This document shows, piece after piece, positions 1 to 2,407 of a stretch of 4,352 nucleotides of DNA. How positions within the stretch are numbered: position 1 is the stretch's first letter; each line of letters starts with the position of its first letter. The notes beneath the pieces are model-generated. The model did not search any database, was not told where the DNA came from, and saw only the letters and a program-made list of their open reading frames with translations. Source of the DNA: a virus (Duplodnaviria > Heunggongvirae > Uroviricota > Caudoviricetes). Made by a program: the position numbers and the translations under genes. Location of the stretch: the IMG/VR virus record IMGVR_UViG_2713896777_000025. The stretch is one strand, 5' to 3'.

Positions 1-324
1 GCTGTGCATCCCTTCGGGGTAATAATTCGCATCAGTTACACCCGCCGCCGCCAGCTTGTGCGCAATGGCATTAATATTTGATGGCCTGATGTGGCCTGCC
101 TTGTACAGCCGGACACAATAGCGCCCCTCGTCGATGATTCTCAGGTCTGCCAGTTCATCCAGTTGATCATCAGCCAGCACAACGGGAGGCACATTATCGC
201 CAGCCAGTCGCCCGTCCTGTTCCTGCCACTGTTTCGCATGTGCCCAGGCATCACTACCCGCAAAAATAATGACTTCGGTCATCTTGTCGTAAGGCTGTTT
301 TTTTAAGTTCGGTGCGCTTTTCAT
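1..324 (-). CDS. Hypothetical protein, N-terminal part only (gene runs off the left edge); begins MKSAPNLKKQPYDKMTEVIIFAGSDAWAHAKQWQEQDGRLAGDNVPPVVLADDQLDELADLRIIDEGRYCVRLYKAGHIRPSNINAIAHKLAAAGVTDANYYPEGMHS
   Basis: Minus-strand frame is open from ATG 324-322 to position 1 (108 codons, no stop); it is missing from the ORF track only because it has no in-window stop. The ATG overlaps the TGA stop of the upstream gene (ATGA at 324-321) and has GGGG (revcomp of 331-334) 6 nt upstream. An in-frame alternative ATG lies at 282-280. Function unknown. Confidence 0.5.
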   Translation of the reverse strand, partial: MKSAPNLKKQPYDKMTEVIIFAGSDAWAHAKQWQEQDGRLAGDNVPPVVLADDQLDELADLRIIDEGRYCVRLYKAGHIRPSNINAIAHKLAAAGVTDANYYPEGMHS

Positions 325-620
325 TTCTTGCCCCTGAATCCGTTAATCATGGTTTTCAGCTTCTGGATGTTTGCCCGTGCCCTGGCGTTGCTGGTGGGCA
401 CGTTATGCGGCGCGGTCTGTACCAGAGAAAAATCACGCCGGAACTGATAAACAGGCATCACGCAATCATATTCGTAACCTTCACGGCGGTAGGTTACGCG
501 CCGTTCTTCCACGCCCTTAATCATTACCGTGCCGCCGTACTGGTCGCGGTAAATATCACCGCGCGTAAATTTAGGGTGAGTGTTGCCACTGGCAGTTAAG
601 CCAGAATATTTAAGTTTCAT
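321..620 (-). CDS. Hypothetical small protein (99 aa, MKLKYSGLTASGNTHPKF...)
   Basis: ORF-track ORF. Stop TGA at 323-321 overlaps the start of the next gene; its own ATG (620-618) overlaps the TGA (619-617) of the preceding ORF, so the genes look translationally coupled. The RBS region is hidden by the N-run at 622-688, so the true start could lie further upstream. Confidence 0.5.
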   Translation of the reverse strand: MKLKYSGLTASGNTHPKFTRGDIYRDQYGGTVMIKGVEERRVTYRREGYEYDCVMPVYQFRRDFSLVQTAPHNVPTSNARARANIQKLKTMINGFRGKK

Positions 621-820
621 TNNNNNNNNNNNNNNNNNNNNNNNNNNNNNNNNNNNNNNNNNNNNNNNNNNNNNNNNNNNNNNNNNNNTCTTGATTTTTG
701 TTTGTCGCGTTCATTGTCGCCAAGTGTTTCAAGCCATATGCGCAATATTTCGTACATACCTTCAGCGTAAGCAAGGGCACTAAATGCGCGGTCTATTGTT
801 TCGTGGTAAATATCACGCAT
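617..820 (-). CDS. Hypothetical small protein (~67 aa, MRDIYHETIDRAFSALAYAEGMYEILRIWLETLGDNERDKQKSR..., C-terminal third masked by N-run)
   Basis: ATG at 820-818 lies 1 nt after the TAA stop (824-822) of the upstream gene, with a G-rich stretch (GGACGGGG) 6 nt upstream. The frame runs into the 67-nt N-run and exits exactly onto a TGA that overlaps the next ATG. Acceptance depends on the N-run length being true. Confidence 0.4.
   Translation of the reverse strand: MRDIYHETIDRAFSALAYAEGMYEILRIWLETLGDNERDKQKSRXXXXXXXXXXXXXXXXXXXXXXX
622..688. other. Run of 67 N (masked or unresolved bases)
   Basis: Directly visible. Falls at the junction of two overlapping minus-strand genes. Confidence 1.
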
Positions 821-821
821 A

Positions 822-1043
822 TTAATCCCCGTCCGTTGTTTTTCTTAAAACAGCTTCTGTCACGAAATCAGCATAGTTAGCGGCAATATCAAGAATATTT
901 AGCCCTGTATCTCTGTGCTCATCAGTGCAAAGAAAGAAAAAAGCCACCCGCATAATTTCAGATATTGACGAAAGCGCATCAGCCGCATCATCAGGAACGC
1001 CGGAAAATTCTTGTTTCAGGGAATTAAAACGATCATCACGCAT
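822..1043 (-). CDS. Hypothetical small protein (73 aa, MRDDRFNSLKQEFSGVPDDAADALSSISEIMRVAFFFLCTDEHRDTGLNILDIAANYADFVTEAVLRKTTDGD)
   Basis: Same frame as ORF-track ORF 822..1091; I prefer the ATG at 1043-1041 because it sits 2 nt after a G8 tract (revcomp of C-run 1046-1053) that can act as the SD, and it overlaps the stop of the upstream gene (ATGCGTGA). Alternative starts at 1055 and 1091 lack an RBS. Confidence 0.5.
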   Translation of the reverse strand: MRDDRFNSLKQEFSGVPDDAADALSSISEIMRVAFFFLCTDEHRDTGLNILDIAANYADFVTEAVLRKTTDGD

Positions 1044-1257
1044 AACCCCCCCCATTTTCACAATCAGCAACAAGAATATTTTTAGCGTCATTCAGCGACC
1101 GCGTTGCGATGTATCGGATACATTCCAGGGCGAACTGTGTCCGGTCTTTCTGTTCTTCTCCCTGCGCAAGCTCTGCAGTGCATTCAATATCGATAAGCGC
1201 GTGCATCAGCGTAGTGAGCGCGGCGGCTGCTGCGTCCGGTGTGGTTTTATTGCACAT
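1036..1257 (-). CDS. Hypothetical small acidic protein (73 aa, MCNKTTPDAAAAALTTLMHALIDIECTAELAQGEEQKDRTQFALECIRYIATRSLNDAKNILVADCENGGGYA)
   Basis: Same frame as ORF-track ORF 1036..1299; start placed at ATG 1257-1255, which has a consensus SD AGGAGG (revcomp of 1264-1269) 6 nt upstream and overlaps the last codons of the preceding gene. Stop TGA at 1038-1036. Confidence 0.6.
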   Translation of the reverse strand: MCNKTTPDAAAAALTTLMHALIDIECTAELAQGEEQKDRTQFALECIRYIATRSLNDAKNILVADCENGGGYA

Positions 1258-1807
1258 GGCACACCTCCTGACGAATACGGGCGGCGAATACAGCAACACA
1301 ACCGGACGGGCAACGGCTACGCGCTTCGCGTTCCGTCCAGGCGGTTACGTGGATGATTTGATGTTCTGACGCGCCAAAGATGATAAAGCGCCAGAGAAAG
1401 GCGGTTTGAGAATGTACAAGGGTAGGGATAGTAGCCATGTTGGCAGCCTCCTCAGTGTGGTTAAGATAACCGCCACCGGAAACGCCAATTTCGCTGGTGG
1501 CGGACTGTACAGGGTTGGCGTAACCGGACACTGAAGAAACCGGCGCGGATTGCTCCGCCCCCGTACAGCCCACCATTGATAAGGTGTGACTATGCGGCAC
1601 AAAAAAACACGCGGGGCGCGTGTTATGCGCTTCAGTTTTGCCCAGGACGCCAATCCCGGCACCCGTTTTATGAGGTGCGCGGGAATCATAGCTATTTTCG
1701 ACACTGGCGATCAACTGGTTTTTTTCTCCGATATTCAGGGCCAGAAAACGCCACACAAAGGCCGTTTGTGTGTGTACAAGGTGTGGTATATGATTTACGG
1801 CAACCAT
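1247..1807 (-). CDS. Small protein (186 aa) with an internal tandem duplication of an N-terminal module (HIPHLVHTQTAFVWRFLALNIGEKNQLI / TIPTLVHSQTAFLWRFIIFGASEHQII); possibly related to Icd-like proteins of P4-type elements (unverified)
   Basis: ATG at 1807-1805 with SD AGGAG (revcomp of 1813-1817) 5 nt upstream; frame open to TAA at 1249-1247. A second in-frame ATG at 1438-1436 has its own strong SD GAGGAGG (revcomp of 1447-1453, 8-nt spacer) and begins a 63-aa copy of the module. The longer ORF-track call 1247..2323 is rejected because it reads antisense through the RHH gene and the operator region. Confidence 0.55.
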   Translation of the reverse strand: MVAVNHIPHLVHTQTAFVWRFLALNIGEKNQLIASVENSYDSRAPHKTGAGIGVLGKTEAHNTRPACFFVPHSHTLSMVGCTGAEQSAPVSSVSGYANPVQSATSEIGVSGGGYLNHTEEAANMATIPTLVHSQTAFLWRFIIFGASEHQIIHVTAWTEREARSRCPSGCVAVFAARIRQEVCHVQ

Positions 1808-1836
1808 AACGGCTCCTAGTTTACGTTGTTGGTTAG

Positions 1837-1878
1837 ACGCCCCGTATGTGTTCCCAGCACTGCGGGGCGTTGATTTTT
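1837..1878 (+). terminator. Hairpin followed by a T-tract (terminator-like on the plus strand; also a structured element in the 5' leader of the minus-strand operon)
   Basis: ACGCCCCG (1838-1845) pairs with CGGGGCGT (1863-1870), with an inner GTG/CAC pair, followed by TGATTTTTGT (1871-1880). On the minus strand the same stem is not followed by a U-tract. Confidence 0.3.
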
Positions 1879-1897
1879 GTGTAATGGCAAGTACAAT
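1870..1897 (+). promoter_or_regulatory. Candidate sigma70 promoter for the RHH gene (TTGATT - 16 bp - TACAAT)
   Basis: -35 TTGATT at 1870-1875 and -10 TACAAT at 1892-1897; predicted TSS near 1904, about 34 nt before the RHH ATG. The -10 overlaps palindrome 1. Confidence 0.4.
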
Positions 1898-1909
1898 GGT
1901 AATTACCAT
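1896..1909. promoter_or_regulatory. Perfect 14-bp palindrome ATGGTAATTACCAT (candidate operator 1)
   Basis: Read directly from the sequence; it is its own reverse complement. Overlaps the plus-strand -10 and the predicted TSS of the minus-strand promoter. Confidence 0.5.
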
Positions 1910-1915
1910 GTAGGT

Positions 1916-1944
1916 ATAGTAATGAAGGGTAATTACCATGTCAA
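1916..1944 (-). promoter_or_regulatory. Candidate sigma70 promoter for the minus-strand small-gene operon (TTGACA - 17 bp - TACTAT)
   Basis: On the minus strand, a consensus -35 TTGACA (revcomp of 1939-1944, overlapping the RHH start codon), an exact 17-bp spacer that contains palindrome 2, and -10 TACTAT (revcomp of 1916-1921). Predicted TSS near 1908, about 100 nt before ATG 1807. Confidence 0.45.
1928..1937. promoter_or_regulatory. Perfect 10-bp palindrome GGTAATTACC (candidate operator 2)
   Basis: Same core as palindrome 1, 30 bp centre-to-centre. Sits in the -35/-10 spacer of the minus-strand promoter and covers the RBS of the RHH gene. Confidence 0.5.
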
Positions 1945-2111
1945 CACCATTAGAAAAACGTTCGCCTCCATACCAAATGCGATTACCGGAAGACTTCAGA
2001 GCGCAGCTAGAAGAAGCAGCTAAGGCCGATGGCGACACATCTTTAGCCACTTGGATTAAACGCGTTCTCCGCAAAGAATTACAGCAACGCGGCATAGAAC
2101 CCAAAGGATAA
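1938..2111 (+). CDS. Arc/Mnt/MetJ-family ribbon-helix-helix DNA-binding protein (57 aa, MSTPLEKRSPPYQMRLPEDFRAQLEEAAKADGDTSLATWIKRVLRKELQQRGIEPKG)
   Basis: Not in the ORF track (below its size cut-off); translated by hand. SD AAGGG at 1925-1929, 8 nt before ATG 1938; stop TAA at 2109-2111. The protein has the Arc/Mnt RHH pattern: beta-strand YQMRLP, helix A EDFRAQLEEAAKADG, turn, helix B SLATWIKRVLRKELQQ. Confidence 0.8.
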   Translation: MSTPLEKRSPPYQMRLPEDFRAQLEEAAKADGDTSLATWIKRVLRKELQQRGIEPKG

Positions 2112-2168
2112 AAACTATCAGCGCCGTGGTGTGAGGTATTACGGCGCATTGCTATGCAGGACAACACA

Positions 2169-2327
2169 ATGACCGATAAAGAATTGACCAAAACATNNNN
2201 NNNNNNNNNNNNNNNNNNNNNNNNNNNNNNNNNNNNNNNNNNNNNNNNNNNNNNNCTGATTGCATTGCCCACCAGCCTGATAGCGGCTATCATCCCCGTG
2301 CTTATGTTTGGGATCACATACACATAA
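2169..2327 (+). CDS. Probable small single-TM membrane peptide (~52 aa; MTDKELTKT...[about 20 masked codons]...LIALPTSLIAAIIPVLMFGITYT)
   Basis: ATG 2169 with AGGA (2158-2161) 7 nt upstream; an alternative ATG is at 2154. The frame stays in register across the 59-nt N-run and ends at TAA 2325-2327, 27 nt before a strong plus-strand terminator. The C-terminus is a 20-residue hydrophobic stretch. Uncertain because about 40% of the ORF is masked. Confidence 0.35.
   Translation: MTDKELTKTXXXXXXXXXXXXXXXXXXXXLIALPTSLIAAIIPVLMFGITYT
2197..2255. other. Run of 59 N (masked or unresolved bases)
   Basis: Directly visible. Falls inside the candidate small membrane-peptide ORF. Confidence 1.
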
Positions 2328-2353
2328 GGCGCAGCGGGTTAATTGTTCAGAAA

Positions 2354-2381
2354 GGCGGCTCCATATCGGGGCCGCTTTTTT
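2354..2381 (+). terminator. Rho-independent terminator for the plus-strand RHH cassette (possibly weakly bidirectional, also ending alpA)
   Basis: GCGGCTCC (2355-2362) pairs with GGGGCCGC (2368-2375), 8 bp with one G-U, loop ATATC, followed by TTTTTT (2376-2381). On the minus strand the hairpin is followed only by CTTTCTG. Confidence 0.6.
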
Positions 2382-2407
2382 CGTGTTTGTCATATCTGTG
2401 ATACCCG

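What the first reader, a model, noticed from the sequence alone, without database searches (positions are those of the whole stretch)
1..1807. Operon of six overlapping small genes of unknown function behind the regulated promoter
Six consecutive minus-strand ORFs tile 1807..1 with essentially no intergenic space, joined by ATGA or similar stop-start overlaps (at 1257/1247, 1043/1036, 820/824, 620/617 and 324/321). That pattern is typical of a translationally coupled phage early operon. None of the products is recognisable to me; the last one runs off the left edge and may be the start of a larger protein such as a replication protein. The ORF track misses the correct starts for several of these and misses the edge gene entirely.
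Basis: partly seen in the sequence, partly recalled or inferred. Interest (0 to 1): 0.4.

Follow-up and report, generated by a model that had tools for sequence, protein, structure and literature searches.

The report
Satellite early operon with RNA immunity switch
This stretch is the early operon of a small phage-parasite island in E. coli, in which a well-known antisense-RNA "immunity" switch (C4/CI RNA with its IsrK/seqA leader) sits inside the first supposed gene and most likely gates a cell-division inhibitor, three small unknown proteins and the island's replication genes; this is an ordinary member of a known kind.

Summary
The minus-strand gene tiling is real. The ORFs cover 99.7% of 1..1807, five of them show dN/dS of 0.2-0.65, and NCBI annotates the same genes in identical E. 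coli genomes.

- The 620/617 junction is an artefact of an N mask. In the true sequence there is a 5-nt gap.
- The first "gene" (1807..1247) is composite. It contains a 5' copy of the icd start and a conserved internal promoter (1714..1685). Next come an IsrK/seqA-type leader RNA with its terminator (1678..1602, Rfam 66 bits) and a C4/CI-type antisense RNA (1580..1493, 77.6 bits). Last is a 63-codon Icd/Kil-like gene (1438..1247), whose Shine-Dalgarno sequence is covered by a C4 target site.

Nine C4 loop variants in related loci each have matching targets, which supports the switch. Three products are recognisable: Icd-like, DUF4222, and the edge gene, a 466-aa RepA-family helicase. Three small acidic proteins (73, 73 and 77 aa) remain uncharacterised.

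The element (Int, AlpA, immunity RNAs, replication genes, TerS and capsid, at tRNA-Pro) fits the published Gram-negative PICI layout and the P4/P1 immunity logic. I rate it a new member of a known kind, of modest interest.

The parts
1916..1944 (-). Upstream sigma-70-like promoter of the operon (TTGACA, 17 nt, TACTAT; predicted start about 1909). It is flanked by and overlaps two GGTAATTACC palindromes (1895-1911, 1925-1941), which are candidate operators for the divergent Arc-like gene at 1938..2111 (+).
   Evidence: Promoter scan, 10 of 12 matches; repeats; Arc-like hits PF03869 E 0.038 (below Pfam cutoff) and phrog_228 E 1.5e-6. Function inferred.
1837..1870 (-). 8-bp GC-rich hairpin in the 5' leader of the upstream-promoter transcript; role unknown.
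   Evidence: Inverted repeat I3.
1247..1807 (-). 186-codon open frame ('orf186'; SD AGGAG 1817..1813, ATG 1807). It runs through both RNA genes and ends as the Icd-like protein. It is the positional counterpart of P4 eta, with kil nested at its end. Its first ~33 codons are a diverged copy of the icd 5' end.
   Evidence: Pfam Phage_ASH hits aa 40-133, i.e. 1690..1409, the stretch holding isrK and C4; aa 7-45 are 44% identical to icd63 aa 4-44; S. flexneri relative L004 uses this same start for its only icd gene; frame preservation in relatives.
1685..1714 (-). Internal promoter (TTGATC, 18 nt, TATGAT) placing the start at about 1678, the first base of IsrK. Counterpart of P4 PLE and Gifsy-1 PisrK.
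   Evidence: Promoter scan. The -35 TTG and -10 TAnnnT keep the same register in front of isrK in several unrelated upstream contexts. P4 has the same layout. Activity not tested.
1602..1678 (-). IsrK/seqA-type leader RNA. It carries target sites b1 (AUUGGCGU, 1654..1647) and a1 (ACUGAAG, 1636..1630) and an intrinsic terminator (stem 1624..1606 plus U run).
   Evidence: Rfam RF01394, 66 bits (gathering 50); terminator scan; duplex with the C4 loops -33.4 kcal/mol against -20.4 +/- 3.4 for shuffles.
1493..1580 (-). C4/CI-type antisense (immunity) RNA. Its a' loop is UUUCUUCAGUGU (1539..1528) and its single-stranded b' is UUACGCCAA (1523..1515).
   Evidence: Rfam RF01695, 77.6 bits (gathering 45), full length; the MFE fold matches the model.
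1447..1489 (-). Downstream C4 targets: b2 (AUUGGCGU, 1489..1482) and a2 (ACACUGAGGAGG, 1458..1447). a2 covers the Shine-Dalgarno sequence GAGGAGG of the icd-like gene.
   Evidence: 12 of 12 pairing with a'; duplex -37.1 kcal/mol against -18.3 +/- 3.4; loop/target covariation over 9 loop types.
1247..1438 (-). 63-aa Icd/Kil-like protein (host cell-division inhibitor family), nested in frame at the end of orf186.
   Evidence: NF033153, 57 bits (cutoff 25); PGAP WP_150322679.1; dN/dS 0.33-0.45; start context nearly identical to P4 kil.
1036..1257 (-). s73a: 73-aa acidic protein, uncharacterised (phrog_5146; N-terminal half of phrog_2512).
   Evidence: PGAP WP_001372127.1; PHROG hits; dN/dS 0.17-0.48.
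822..1043 (-). s73b: 73-aa acidic protein predicted to be all-helical (low-confidence model), uncharacterised (phrog_24341; C-terminal half of phrog_2512).
   Evidence: PGAP WP_001204070.1; dN/dS 0.22-0.38; homologs only in Escherichia/Shigella; AF2 pLDDT 63.
622..820 (-). s77: 77-aa protein (phrog_2196). Its 3' end lies in the masked run; the true gene is L001 9859..9626.
   Evidence: PGAP WP_001204970.1; dN/dS 0.18-0.65; homologs all 'hypothetical/prophage protein' in E. coli.
321..620 (-). DUF4222 protein, 99 aa, immediately upstream of the helicase gene and overlapping it (ATGA).
   Evidence: PF13973, 85.7 bits; PGAP WP_000770175.1; dN/dS 0.21-0.43.
1..324 (-). 5' third of the RepA-family (AAA_25) replicative helicase gene. 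The full protein is 466 aa and runs off the left edge (L001 9324..7924).
   Evidence: PF13481, 148 bits; phrog_2850, 859 bits; PGAP WP_000833625.1; dN/dS 0.21-0.31.

Best explanation
Region 1..1807 is the immunity-plus-replication (early) operon of an ~8.4-kb integrative phage satellite. The satellite has the Gram-negative PICI layout and P4/P1-type RNA immunity, and it sits at tRNA-Pro beside yejM in E. coli.

Gene order, read on the minus strand:
1. An upstream promoter with palindromic operators.
2. SD and ATG at 1807, opening a 186-codon frame.
3. An internal promoter (1714..1685).
4. The IsrK/seqA leader RNA, carrying target sites b1 and a1 and an intrinsic terminator.
5. The C4/CI antisense RNA.
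6. Target sites b2 and a2, lying over the Shine-Dalgarno sequence of a 63-codon Icd/Kil-like gene.
7. Three small acidic proteins (73, 73 and 77 aa).
8. DUF4222.
9. The RepA-family helicase.

Proposed mechanism. The sequence features are shown here; the dynamics are inferred from P4, P1 and Gifsy-1.
- In the resident state the internal promoter makes IsrK and some read-through transcript. C4 RNA is cut out of that read-through transcript.
- The a' loop and b' stretch of C4 pair with b1/a1 and b2/a2 on new transcripts. This favours termination and blocks ribosome binding at the icd-like gene.
- The tightly packed downstream genes, including the replication genes, then stay off.
- On induction, transcription enters from upstream, either from the operator-controlled promoter at about 1909 or from the AlpA-side promoter.
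- Ribosomes starting at 1807 translate straight through IsrK, C4 and the target sites in the frame that is kept open. This prevents the RNA pairing and the termination.
- The Icd-like product and the small proteins are then made, and DUF4222 and RepA are expressed by coupling, so the island replicates.

The three small proteins occupy the position that epsilon and orf151 hold in P4. My guess, at low confidence, is that they act on the helper phage or on host defences.
For: Identity and context:
- The window is 100% identical to E. coli chromosomes in which the surrounding island reads int, AlpA-like HTH, Icd-like, small ORFs, DUF4222, RepA helicase, TerS and major capsid, next to tRNA-Pro.

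RNA genes:
- C4 scores 77.6 bits and isrK 66 bits, both above the gathering scores and both full length.
- The same pair in the same order occurs in P4 and in SfV.

Targets:
- a2 pairs 12 of 12 with the a' loop and covers the SD of the ATG at 1438. b1 and b2 are the same 8-mer.
- Duplex energies are -33.4 and -37.1 kcal/mol, against about -19 +/- 3.4 for shuffled targets.

Covariation:
- In 65 unique loci from viral contigs, 9 different a' loops each have a complementary a2 at a fixed offset over GGAG, and a complementary a1 inside isrK.
- Own-type pairing is 7-8 of 8 in 8 of 9 types. The ninth type has its site shifted by 2 nt. Cross-type pairing averages 3.85 of 8.
- P4 follows the same logic with a different sequence.

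Internal promoter:
- The -35 and -10 elements keep the same register before isrK in unrelated upstream contexts.

Frame preservation:
- The frame through isrK and C4 is open for 114-235 codons in about 55 of 64 unique loci.
- The spacing between b1 and C4 falls in classes of 112, 115, 154 and 160 nt, plus 199 nt in P4. All are congruent modulo 3.
- In true P4-likes this ORF overlaps the vis/alpA stop as ATGA.

Protein genes:
- Family hits and dN/dS below 1.

Literature:
- PMC10111431 describes exactly this PICI zone order, with Rfam C4 and isrK as relatives of CI and seqA, and summarises the P4 eta/kil model.
- PMC4825925 shows that IsrK has its own promoter, that its terminator is read through, that a processed downstream RNA exists, and that IsrK G28/G31 pair with C162/C159 downstream. 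In my reading these correspond to b1 and b'.
- PMC8201110 summarises the P1 C4-Icd-Ant system.
Against: - No expression data were available. Promoter activity, C4 processing, termination and translation through the RNA region are all inferred.
- The 5' icd copy (1807..1691) shows no purifying selection against L004 (dN/dS 0.94 over 38 codons).
- Variation in the C4 region shows no codon periodicity (0.41/0.40/0.47). The 'Ash' peptide itself is therefore probably not selected; only openness of the frame may be.
- The a1 match in this window is short (7 nt).
- PGAP marks two stretches here as pseudogenes.
- The close relative L004 works without any C4/isrK cassette, so the RNA layer is dispensable for the operon as such.
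- No function could be assigned to s73a, s73b or s77.
Confidence: 0.78

Rival explanations
1. One reading: a plain, translationally coupled operon of six protein-coding genes. It is transcribed as one mRNA from the promoter at about 1909 and controlled only by the repressor acting at that promoter. The 186-aa product is an ordinary protein.
For: - The 186-codon frame is open, with a good SD and ATG at 1807.
- Phage records collected in PHROGs call full-length versions (phrog_29966) and label related families 'transcriptional regulator/repressor'.
- L004 uses the same start for a simple icd gene without the RNAs.
- The promoter and operators are present.
Against: - Two full-length Rfam RNA genes, an intrinsic terminator and a conserved promoter lie inside that ORF.
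- Pfam Phage_ASH covers the stretch that holds isrK and C4 (1690..1409).
- Variation there has no codon periodicity.
- Loop/target covariation is an RNA-level signal.
Confidence: 0.08
2. A decaying remnant: the immunity region is a pseudogenised leftover, as PGAP's 'ash family protein' and 'Icd-like' pseudogene calls suggest. It has no current regulatory function, and the downstream genes are silent cargo.
For: - PGAP flags 10508..10978 and 11000..11515 of L001 as incomplete pseudogenes.
- The icd 5' copy shows dN/dS of about 0.94.
- The island is small and lacks a full set of morphogenesis genes.
Against: - C4, isrK, all four target sites, both promoters and all start signals are intact.
- All six downstream genes are under purifying selection.
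- The element is at least 99% identical in 152 records and covers at least 80% of the window in 118 genomes.
- The pseudogene calls are explained by protein models built on translated RNA genes.
Confidence: 0.07
3. The IsrK/C4 pair works mainly in trans on a co-resident helper prophage. It would act as a decoy or repressor of the helper's own C4-controlled antirepressor module, as IsrK activates AnrP in Gifsy-1. Control of the island's own operon would be secondary.
For: - About 260 nt (isrK to the icd start) are 70-75% identical to immunity or antirepressor regions of SfV, P1-like, cdtI and many Stx phages.
- b' and the b sites are the same sequence across most of these elements.
- IsrK acts in trans in Gifsy-1.
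Against: - The a' loop of this element (UUUCUUCAGUGU) occurred only in its own close relatives among 65 unique loci.
- Its best targets are its own a1 and a2.
- No helper with a matching a site was found.
Confidence: 0.07

Closest known systems
Satellite phage P4 left (early) operon: PLL-vis-eta / PLE-seqA-CI RNA-seqC-kil-epsilon-orf151-orf106-alpha
   Same: - Same order: AlpA/Vis homolog, then a long ORF containing an internal promoter, an isrK-type leader (seqA), a C4-type RNA (CI) and a downstream target over the SD of a ~65-codon nested gene (kil 65 aa; here 63 aa). Overlapping small genes follow, then the replication protein.
- The kil and icd63 start contexts are nearly identical: AGGAGGCUGCCAUCAUGGCUAC against GAGGAGGCUGCCAACAUGGCUAC.
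- The mechanism, as summarised in PMC10111431.
   Different: - The a' and b' sequences differ.
- There is no detectable similarity to epsilon, orf151, orf106 or alpha; the replication protein is a RepA/AAA_25 helicase plus DUF4222.
- No sid, delta or psu genes are annotated in the island.
- About 230 nt upstream of isrK there is an extra operator-flanked promoter and an in-frame ATG (1807). About 700 nt holding a divergent Arc-like module lie between alpA and the cassette.
Gram-negative PICIs with the four-zone layout (Integration / Bro plus immunity RNAs / Replication / Late), PMC10111431
   Same: - int and alpA are co-oriented and point inward.
- A middle zone contains Rfam C4 and isrK hits, followed by a replication zone and a late zone with captured TerS and capsid genes.
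- Integration is at a tRNA gene.
   Different: - The replication zone has a RepA-type helicase with DUF4222, not the Primase, SSB and DUF5906 listed there.
- No Bro-N-type domain was detected in the ORF that hosts the RNAs.
- Helper dependence is untested.
Phage P1/P7 immI operon (c4 antisense RNA - icd - ant)
   Same: - A C4 RNA with a' and b' elements and duplicated targets either side.
- The downstream target is at the ribosome site of an icd-family gene that is coupled to what follows.
- Control involves both a protein repressor and the RNA (promoter details for P1 are from my memory).
   Different: - No antirepressor (ant) gene lies downstream. The controlled cargo is small ORFs plus replication genes.
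- The candidate protein repressor is Arc-like, not C1.
Gifsy-1 isrK-orf45-anrP locus of Salmonella (PMC4825925)
   Same: - An IsrK RNA with its own promoter and a leaky intrinsic terminator.
- A processed stable RNA just downstream (STnc1160), in the position of C4.
- Pairing between IsrK G28/G31 and downstream C162/C159, which I read as matching b1 and b' here.
   Different: - There the output is an antirepressor and a Q-like antiterminator of a full prophage.
- Short IsrK is reported there as an activator acting in trans. That has not been shown here.

Membership tests
C4 antisense RNA (Rfam RF01695; P1 c4 / P4 CI) | Sequence and structure match to the covariance model above the gathering score | tested here: met
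   77.6 bits against 45, model positions 1-87 of 87, 1580..1493 on the minus strand. The MFE fold gives the same stem, two hairpins and single-stranded b'.
C4 antisense RNA (Rfam RF01695; P1 c4 / P4 CI) | Two exposed elements (a', b') complementary to two target pairs on the same transcript, one upstream and one downstream | tested here: met
   b1 1654..1647 and a1 1636..1630; b2 1489..1482 and a2 1458..1447. Duplex energies are 3.8 and 5.5 SD below shuffles. Covariation holds across 9 loop types.
C4 antisense RNA (Rfam RF01695; P1 c4 / P4 CI) | Downstream target occludes the ribosome-binding site of the icd/kil gene | tested here: met
   a2 (ACACUGAGGAGG) contains the SD, 8 nt before the ATG at 1438. 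It holds the same position (+53 from the C4 core) in all loop types but one, where it is shifted by 2 nt.
C4 antisense RNA (Rfam RF01695; P1 c4 / P4 CI) | Mature RNA is processed from a longer transcript (RNase P and others) and confers immunity | not testable with these tools
   Needs a Northern blot or RNA-seq, and genetics.
IsrK / seqA leader RNA (Rfam RF01394) | Match above the gathering score, with an intrinsic terminator | tested here: met
   66 bits against 50, 1678..1602. Terminator stem 1624..1606 plus a U run.
IsrK / seqA leader RNA (Rfam RF01394) | Own promoter placing the transcript start at the first base of the RNA | tested here: met
   Met at sequence level only. TTGATC, 18 nt, TATGAT lies 6 nt before G1678. 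The register is conserved in unrelated contexts and in P4. Activity is untested.
Icd-like host cell-division inhibitor (NCBIfam NF033153; P1 Icd, P4 Kil) | HMM score above the curated cutoff | tested here: met
   57.1 bits against 25 for the 63-aa product. Direct similarity to P4 Kil is only 29% with E 0.1.
Icd-like host cell-division inhibitor (NCBIfam NF033153; P1 Icd, P4 Kil) | Inhibits cell division or kills on overexpression | not testable with these tools
   Needs an expression experiment.
P4-like satellite in the strict sense | P4 core genes: alpha primase-helicase, epsilon (Derepression PF25738), sid/delta/psu | tested here: not met
   No similarity to alpha, epsilon, orf151 or orf106. 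There was no PF25738 hit on any small ORF, whereas P4 epsilon hits it. No sid, delta or psu is annotated in the island. It works like P4 in immunity but is not a P4-family member.
Gram-negative PICI (four-zone organisation, PMC10111431) | int plus alpA co-oriented inward; immunity/Bro zone; replication zone; late zone; integration at a specific site | tested here: met
   Annotation and family hits. The island is adjacent to tRNA-Pro. The replication genes differ from those typical of the published set.
Gram-negative PICI (four-zone organisation, PMC10111431) | Induced, packaged and transferred by a helper phage | not testable with these tools
   Needs induction and transduction experiments.
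P1 immI operon | Antirepressor (ant) gene translationally coupled downstream of icd | tested here: not met
   The genes downstream of icd63 are s73a, s73b, s77, DUF4222 and RepA. None has an Ant, KilA or Bro hit.
Pfam Phage_ASH (PF10554) as a protein family | Conservation due to selection on an encoded protein | tested here: inconclusive
   The HMM hit (63 bits) maps to 1690..1409, the stretch that holds isrK and C4. Variability there shows no codon periodicity. However, spacing classes preserve the frame, and the P4 eta frame is reported to be translated. The frame probably matters and the peptide probably does not.

The most novel reading that the evidence does not exclude
The promoter, IsrK, C4, target sites and icd-5' block is an exchangeable immunity cassette. 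It is inserted in frame and flanked by a direct repeat of the icd start. Relative L004 lacks it precisely, L119 carries two in tandem, and this element carries an a' specificity not seen in the other loci sampled. The cassette is layered under a protein (Arc-like) repressor-controlled promoter, which gives a two-key switch: protein repression of entry, and RNA repression that is overridden by translation from ATG 1807. The three Escherichia-restricted small acidic proteins under its control are new helper-directed or defence-directed effectors.
Probability: 0.3. Interest if true: 0.45.

Novelty: new member of a known kind. Interest (0 to 1): 0.27.

Why it matters
Scientifically this adds little. 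RNA-based immunity of the P4/P1 type and its presence in Gram-negative PICIs are already published.

The practical value lies in annotation.
- An apparently clean 186-codon ORF is in large part two RNA genes and a promoter.
- The protein-family labels 'Ash family protein' and 'transcriptional repressor' derive from those RNA genes. NCBI's pseudogene calls here are best explained by protein models built on that translated RNA.
- A masked run created a false stop-start overlap.

The locus also offers a compact natural test bed, present in many O26, O111 and other pathogenic E. coli. It allows study of how a protein repressor and an antisense RNA are combined to control satellite replication. It also provides three small conserved proteins of unknown role that sit where P4 keeps its helper-derepression gene.

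Tried and rejected
- Similarity of s73a, s73b, s77 and DUF4222 to P4 epsilon, orf151, orf106 and alpha: none significant. The best was DUF4222 against orf151, E 0.15. P4 orf151 has no Pfam hit.
- Paralogy among the three small proteins: not supported (E at least 0.9).
- Large homolog searches for s73b and s77 returned only Escherichia/Shigella 'hypothetical' or 'prophage' proteins with no Pfam domains.
- AlphaFold2 of s73b with 22 sequences gave an all-helical model at pLDDT 63 and pTM 0.33. That is too weak for a fold search, so none was run.
- PDB sequence search with DUF4222 found nothing.
- The one genome-contig scan, run with the 63-aa protein, gave only three loci. The useful comparative set came from a DNA pattern scan of viral contigs.
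- I considered that the 409-codon open frame from just after alpA (L001 11515..10286) is a full eta equivalent. It is not conserved in the close relative L119, and L004 has a frame break. Its third codon positions coincide with those of the plus-strand Arc-like genes, which show the more protein-like substitution pattern. The upstream part is probably a shadow ORF; this is left open.
- Extra C4 targets in the island: only one noteworthy site, listed under noticed in passing.
- Forti et al. 1999 (PMC94026) is not in the held library. The P4 eta/kil facts are cited through the summary in PMC10111431.
- One literature search was wasted on generic terms.

Full report
**What the window is.** The 4352-base window is 100% identical to chromosomal DNA of many E. 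coli strains. In all, 2354 of 5426 complete genomes have some match, and 118 carry at least 80% of the window. In NZ_CP074961 it lies in an ~8.4-kb island between a yejO pseudogene and tRNA-Pro/yejM. The island reads: integrase, a 76-aa ORF, an AlpA-like HTH protein, the region studied here, a RepA-family helicase, three small ORFs, a small terminase subunit, a 53-aa ORF and a major capsid protein.

The two N runs in the window are masks that hide more sequence than they show. Positions 622-688 stand for 106 real bases, and 2197-2255 stand for 142. I therefore read the junctions on the unmasked record, locus L001.

**Check of the observation.** Minus-strand ORFs of at least 60 aa cover 99.7% of 1..1807. 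In 1000 shuffles the mean was 37% and the maximum 77%. The plus strand also reaches 74%, so tiling alone proves little.

The real junctions are:
- 11-nt overlap at 1257/1247;
- 8-nt overlap at 1043/1036;
- 1-nt gap at 822/820;
- 5-nt gap between the 77-aa gene and DUF4222;
- ATGA overlap at 324/321.

Every start has a Shine-Dalgarno-like sequence. Against diverged relatives (L004, L005, L006, L031, L119, L124), dN/dS is 0.33-0.45 for icd63, 0.17-0.48 for s73a, 0.22-0.38 for s73b, 0.18-0.65 for s77, 0.21-0.43 for DUF4222 and 0.21-0.31 for the helicase N-terminus. These are real protein genes on the minus strand, and NCBI annotates the same coordinates.

**What the products are.**
- The 63-aa product of 1438..1247 is an Icd-like host cell-division inhibitor (NF033153, 57 bits against a cutoff of 25).
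- The 99-aa product of 620..321 is DUF4222 (86 bits).
- The edge gene is a 466-aa RepA-family AAA_25 helicase (148 bits; phrog_2850, 859 bits).
- The 73-, 73- and 77-aa products match only PHROG families of unknown function. One PHROG (2512, 154 aa) spans the first two as if they were fused.
- Their homologs are confined to Escherichia and Shigella and are unnamed.
- They show no similarity to P4 epsilon, orf151 or orf106, or to each other.
- An AlphaFold2 model of s73b is helical but of low confidence.

**The first 'gene' is composite.** Rfam finds two full-length RNA genes on the minus strand inside the 186-codon ORF at 1807..1247. One is the C4 antisense RNA at 1580..1493 (77.6 bits, gathering score 45). 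The other is isrK at 1678..1602 (66 bits, gathering score 50). A weaker match to the C4 target model overlaps isrK.

The isrK match ends in an intrinsic terminator. Immediately upstream lies a promoter-like site: TTGATC 1714..1709, 18 nt, TATGAT 1690..1685. It places the transcript start at about the first base of isrK. In related loci with several unrelated upstream sequences, and in P4, a -35 TTG and a -10 TAnnnT sit in the same register before isrK.

Pfam's 'Ash protein family' hit on the ORF maps to residues 40-133, which is 1690..1409, the stretch that holds isrK and C4. NCBI's 'ash family protein' pseudogene call covers the same stretch. Sequence variability in the C4 region shows no codon periodicity (0.41/0.40/0.47 by codon position). 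The conservation is therefore at the RNA level.

**How the RNA switch is built.** C4 folds as the Rfam model does. It has a 12-nt loop a' (UUUCUUCAGUGU, 1539..1528) and a single-stranded b' (UUACGCCAA, 1523..1515). Complementary sites lie on the same transcript:
- b1 (AUUGGCGU, 1654..1647) and a1 (ACUGAAG, 1636..1630), inside isrK;
- b2 (the same 8-mer, 1489..1482) and a2 (ACACUGAGGAGG, 1458..1447), downstream of C4.

The a2 site pairs 12 of 12 with a' and contains the Shine-Dalgarno sequence of the icd-like ATG at 1438. Predicted duplexes are -33.4 and -37.1 kcal/mol, against -20.4 and -18.3 (SD 3.4) for shuffled targets.

A pattern scan of viral contigs gave 120 loci with 65 unique cores. 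They carry nine different a' loops. Each has a matching a2 at a fixed offset over GGAG and a matching a1 in its isrK. Own-type pairing is 7-8 of 8 variable positions in eight types; the ninth has its site shifted by 2 nt. Cross-type pairing averages 3.85 of 8. P4 shows the same arrangement with different sequences, and its kil start context is almost identical to the one here. This covariation is the strongest evidence that the pairing is functional. The a' loop of this element occurred only in its own close relatives.

**Why the long frame is still relevant.** In P4 the CI RNA and seqA lie inside a long ORF, eta. Its terminal part is kil, and the constitutive promoter is internal to eta. Translation of eta from an upstream promoter prevents immunity-specific termination. 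This comes from the PMC10111431 summary of Forti et al. 1999.

The same geometry holds here: a 186-codon frame, an internal promoter, and a nested 63-codon icd/kil-like gene in the same frame. Three observations across relatives bear on this:
- In about 55 of 64 unique loci the icd frame stays open 114-235 codons upstream, through C4 and isrK, while the other frames close.
- The b1-to-C4 spacing occurs in classes of 112, 115, 154 and 160 nt, plus 199 nt in P4. All are congruent modulo 3, a pattern with about a 1 in 81 chance.
- In strict P4-likes the ORF overlaps the vis/alpA stop as ATGA.

I infer that openness of the frame is selected and the peptide is not.

The first ~33 codons after ATG 1807 are a diverged copy of the icd 5' end (44% identity to icd63). 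A Shigella flexneri relative (L004) is identical through the leader, the ATG and 25 codons, then joins directly to the icd 3' part. It has no C4 or isrK. The relative L119 has two C4 modules in tandem. The RNA block thus behaves as a repeat-flanked cassette.

**Proposed working.** The features above are shown here; the dynamics are inferred from P4, P1 and Gifsy-1.
- In the resident island the internal promoter yields IsrK and some read-through, from which C4 is processed.
- C4 pairs with b1/a1 and b2/a2. This favours termination and blocks the icd ribosome site, so the packed downstream genes and the replication genes stay silent.
- Transcription entering from upstream comes from the promoter at 1944..1916. 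Two GGTAATTACC palindromes flank and overlap it, and it faces a divergent Arc-like gene. Transcription may also enter from the AlpA side.
- This upstream transcription lets ribosomes start at 1807 and run through the RNA region. That overrides the block and switches on Icd-like, the three small proteins, DUF4222 and RepA.
- The Gifsy-1 work shows that IsrK has its own promoter, that its terminator is leaky, and that a processed RNA lies downstream. It also shows pairing between IsrK G28/G31 and downstream C162/C159, which I read as corresponding to b1 and b' here.
- P1 uses C4 and Icd to gate its antirepressor.

**Comparison with what is known.**
- In immunity logic the locus works like P4. 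It fails the membership test for P4-like satellites: no alpha, epsilon, sid, delta or psu.
- It is not a P1 immI operon, because there is no ant gene.
- It fits the four-zone Gram-negative PICI organisation, in which Rfam C4 and isrK hits were already reported. Its replication genes (DUF4222 plus a RepA helicase) are less typical of that set.

I therefore class it as a new member of a known kind.

**Verdict.** The interest is mainly in the annotation lessons and in the three uncharacterised small proteins.

Noticed in passing
window 1938-2111 (+), with 1895-1911 and 1925-1941: A 57-aa Arc/ribbon-helix-helix-like ORF is divergent from the operon and is not annotated by PGAP. Two GGTAATTACC palindromes, 30 nt apart, overlap both a plus-strand promoter (TTGATT 1870, 16 nt, TACAAT 1897) and the minus-strand promoter. 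Its substitution pattern against L004 (21/10/27 by codon position) looks more protein-like than the antisense frame does.
   Followed up: partly
L001 11515..10286 (window 2393..1247, minus strand): In the unmasked sequence one minus-strand frame is open for 409 codons, starting at an ATG 15 nt after the alpA stop and running to the icd stop. It runs antisense across the Arc-like gene and a 62-aa plus-strand ORF, with third codon positions coinciding. This is not conserved in relatives L119 or L004. It may be a shadow ORF or a P4 eta-like read-through frame.
   Followed up: partly
window 622-688 and 2197-2255: The N runs are masks of altered length: 67 N stand for 106 real bases and 59 N for 142. 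Any ORF or frame read across them in the window is unreliable. The 358-aa ORF 1247..2323 in the window's ORF list is one such artefact.
   Followed up: yes
L001 6377..6369 (outside the window, minus strand): The 9-mer ACACUGAGG, identical to the start of the a2 target of C4, covers the Shine-Dalgarno sequence of the 53-aa ORF that overlaps the capsid gene start. It is also present in L116, where the flanking bases differ. It could be a second C4 target in the late zone. No b site lies nearby.
   Followed up: partly
L004 2880-3180; L119 3235-3900: A Shigella flexneri relative has the same leader and ATG but no isrK/C4 cassette. Another relative has two C4 modules in tandem. The cassette is bounded by a direct repeat of the icd 5' end.
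   Followed up: partly
window 1409-1690 (minus strand): Pfam PF10554 'Ash protein family', NCBI's 'ash family protein' label and several PHROG 'transcriptional repressor' families match the translation of the stretch that holds the isrK and C4 RNA genes. These protein labels probably derive from the old P4 cI protein annotation.
   Followed up: partly
window 822-1257 (minus strand): The two 73-aa genes, which overlap by 8 nt in different frames, match the N- and C-terminal halves of a single 154-position PHROG profile (phrog_2512). In some phages they may be one protein, or may be annotated as one.
   Followed up: no
window 1752-1772 (minus strand): A terminator-like hairpin (CACACAAACGGCCTTTGTGTG, followed by a T-rich tail) lies inside the 5' icd copy, upstream of the internal promoter. 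Its significance is unknown.
   Followed up: no
window 2349-2381 (+): A strong intrinsic terminator lies on the plus strand after the Arc-like gene and the 62-aa ORF. It sits just inside the start of the 409-codon minus-strand frame.
   Followed up: no
L001 5285-6859: The late zone of the island holds only a small terminase subunit (Terminase_2) and a capsid-family protein (weak Phage_capsid hit, E 1e-6), plus tiny ORFs. No portal, protease or head-completion genes are annotated.
   Followed up: no
L006 78-146: The Rfam 'int-alpA RNA' motif (RF02996, 49.8 bits) is present in the E. ruysiae relative. It was not detected in this window.
   Followed up: no
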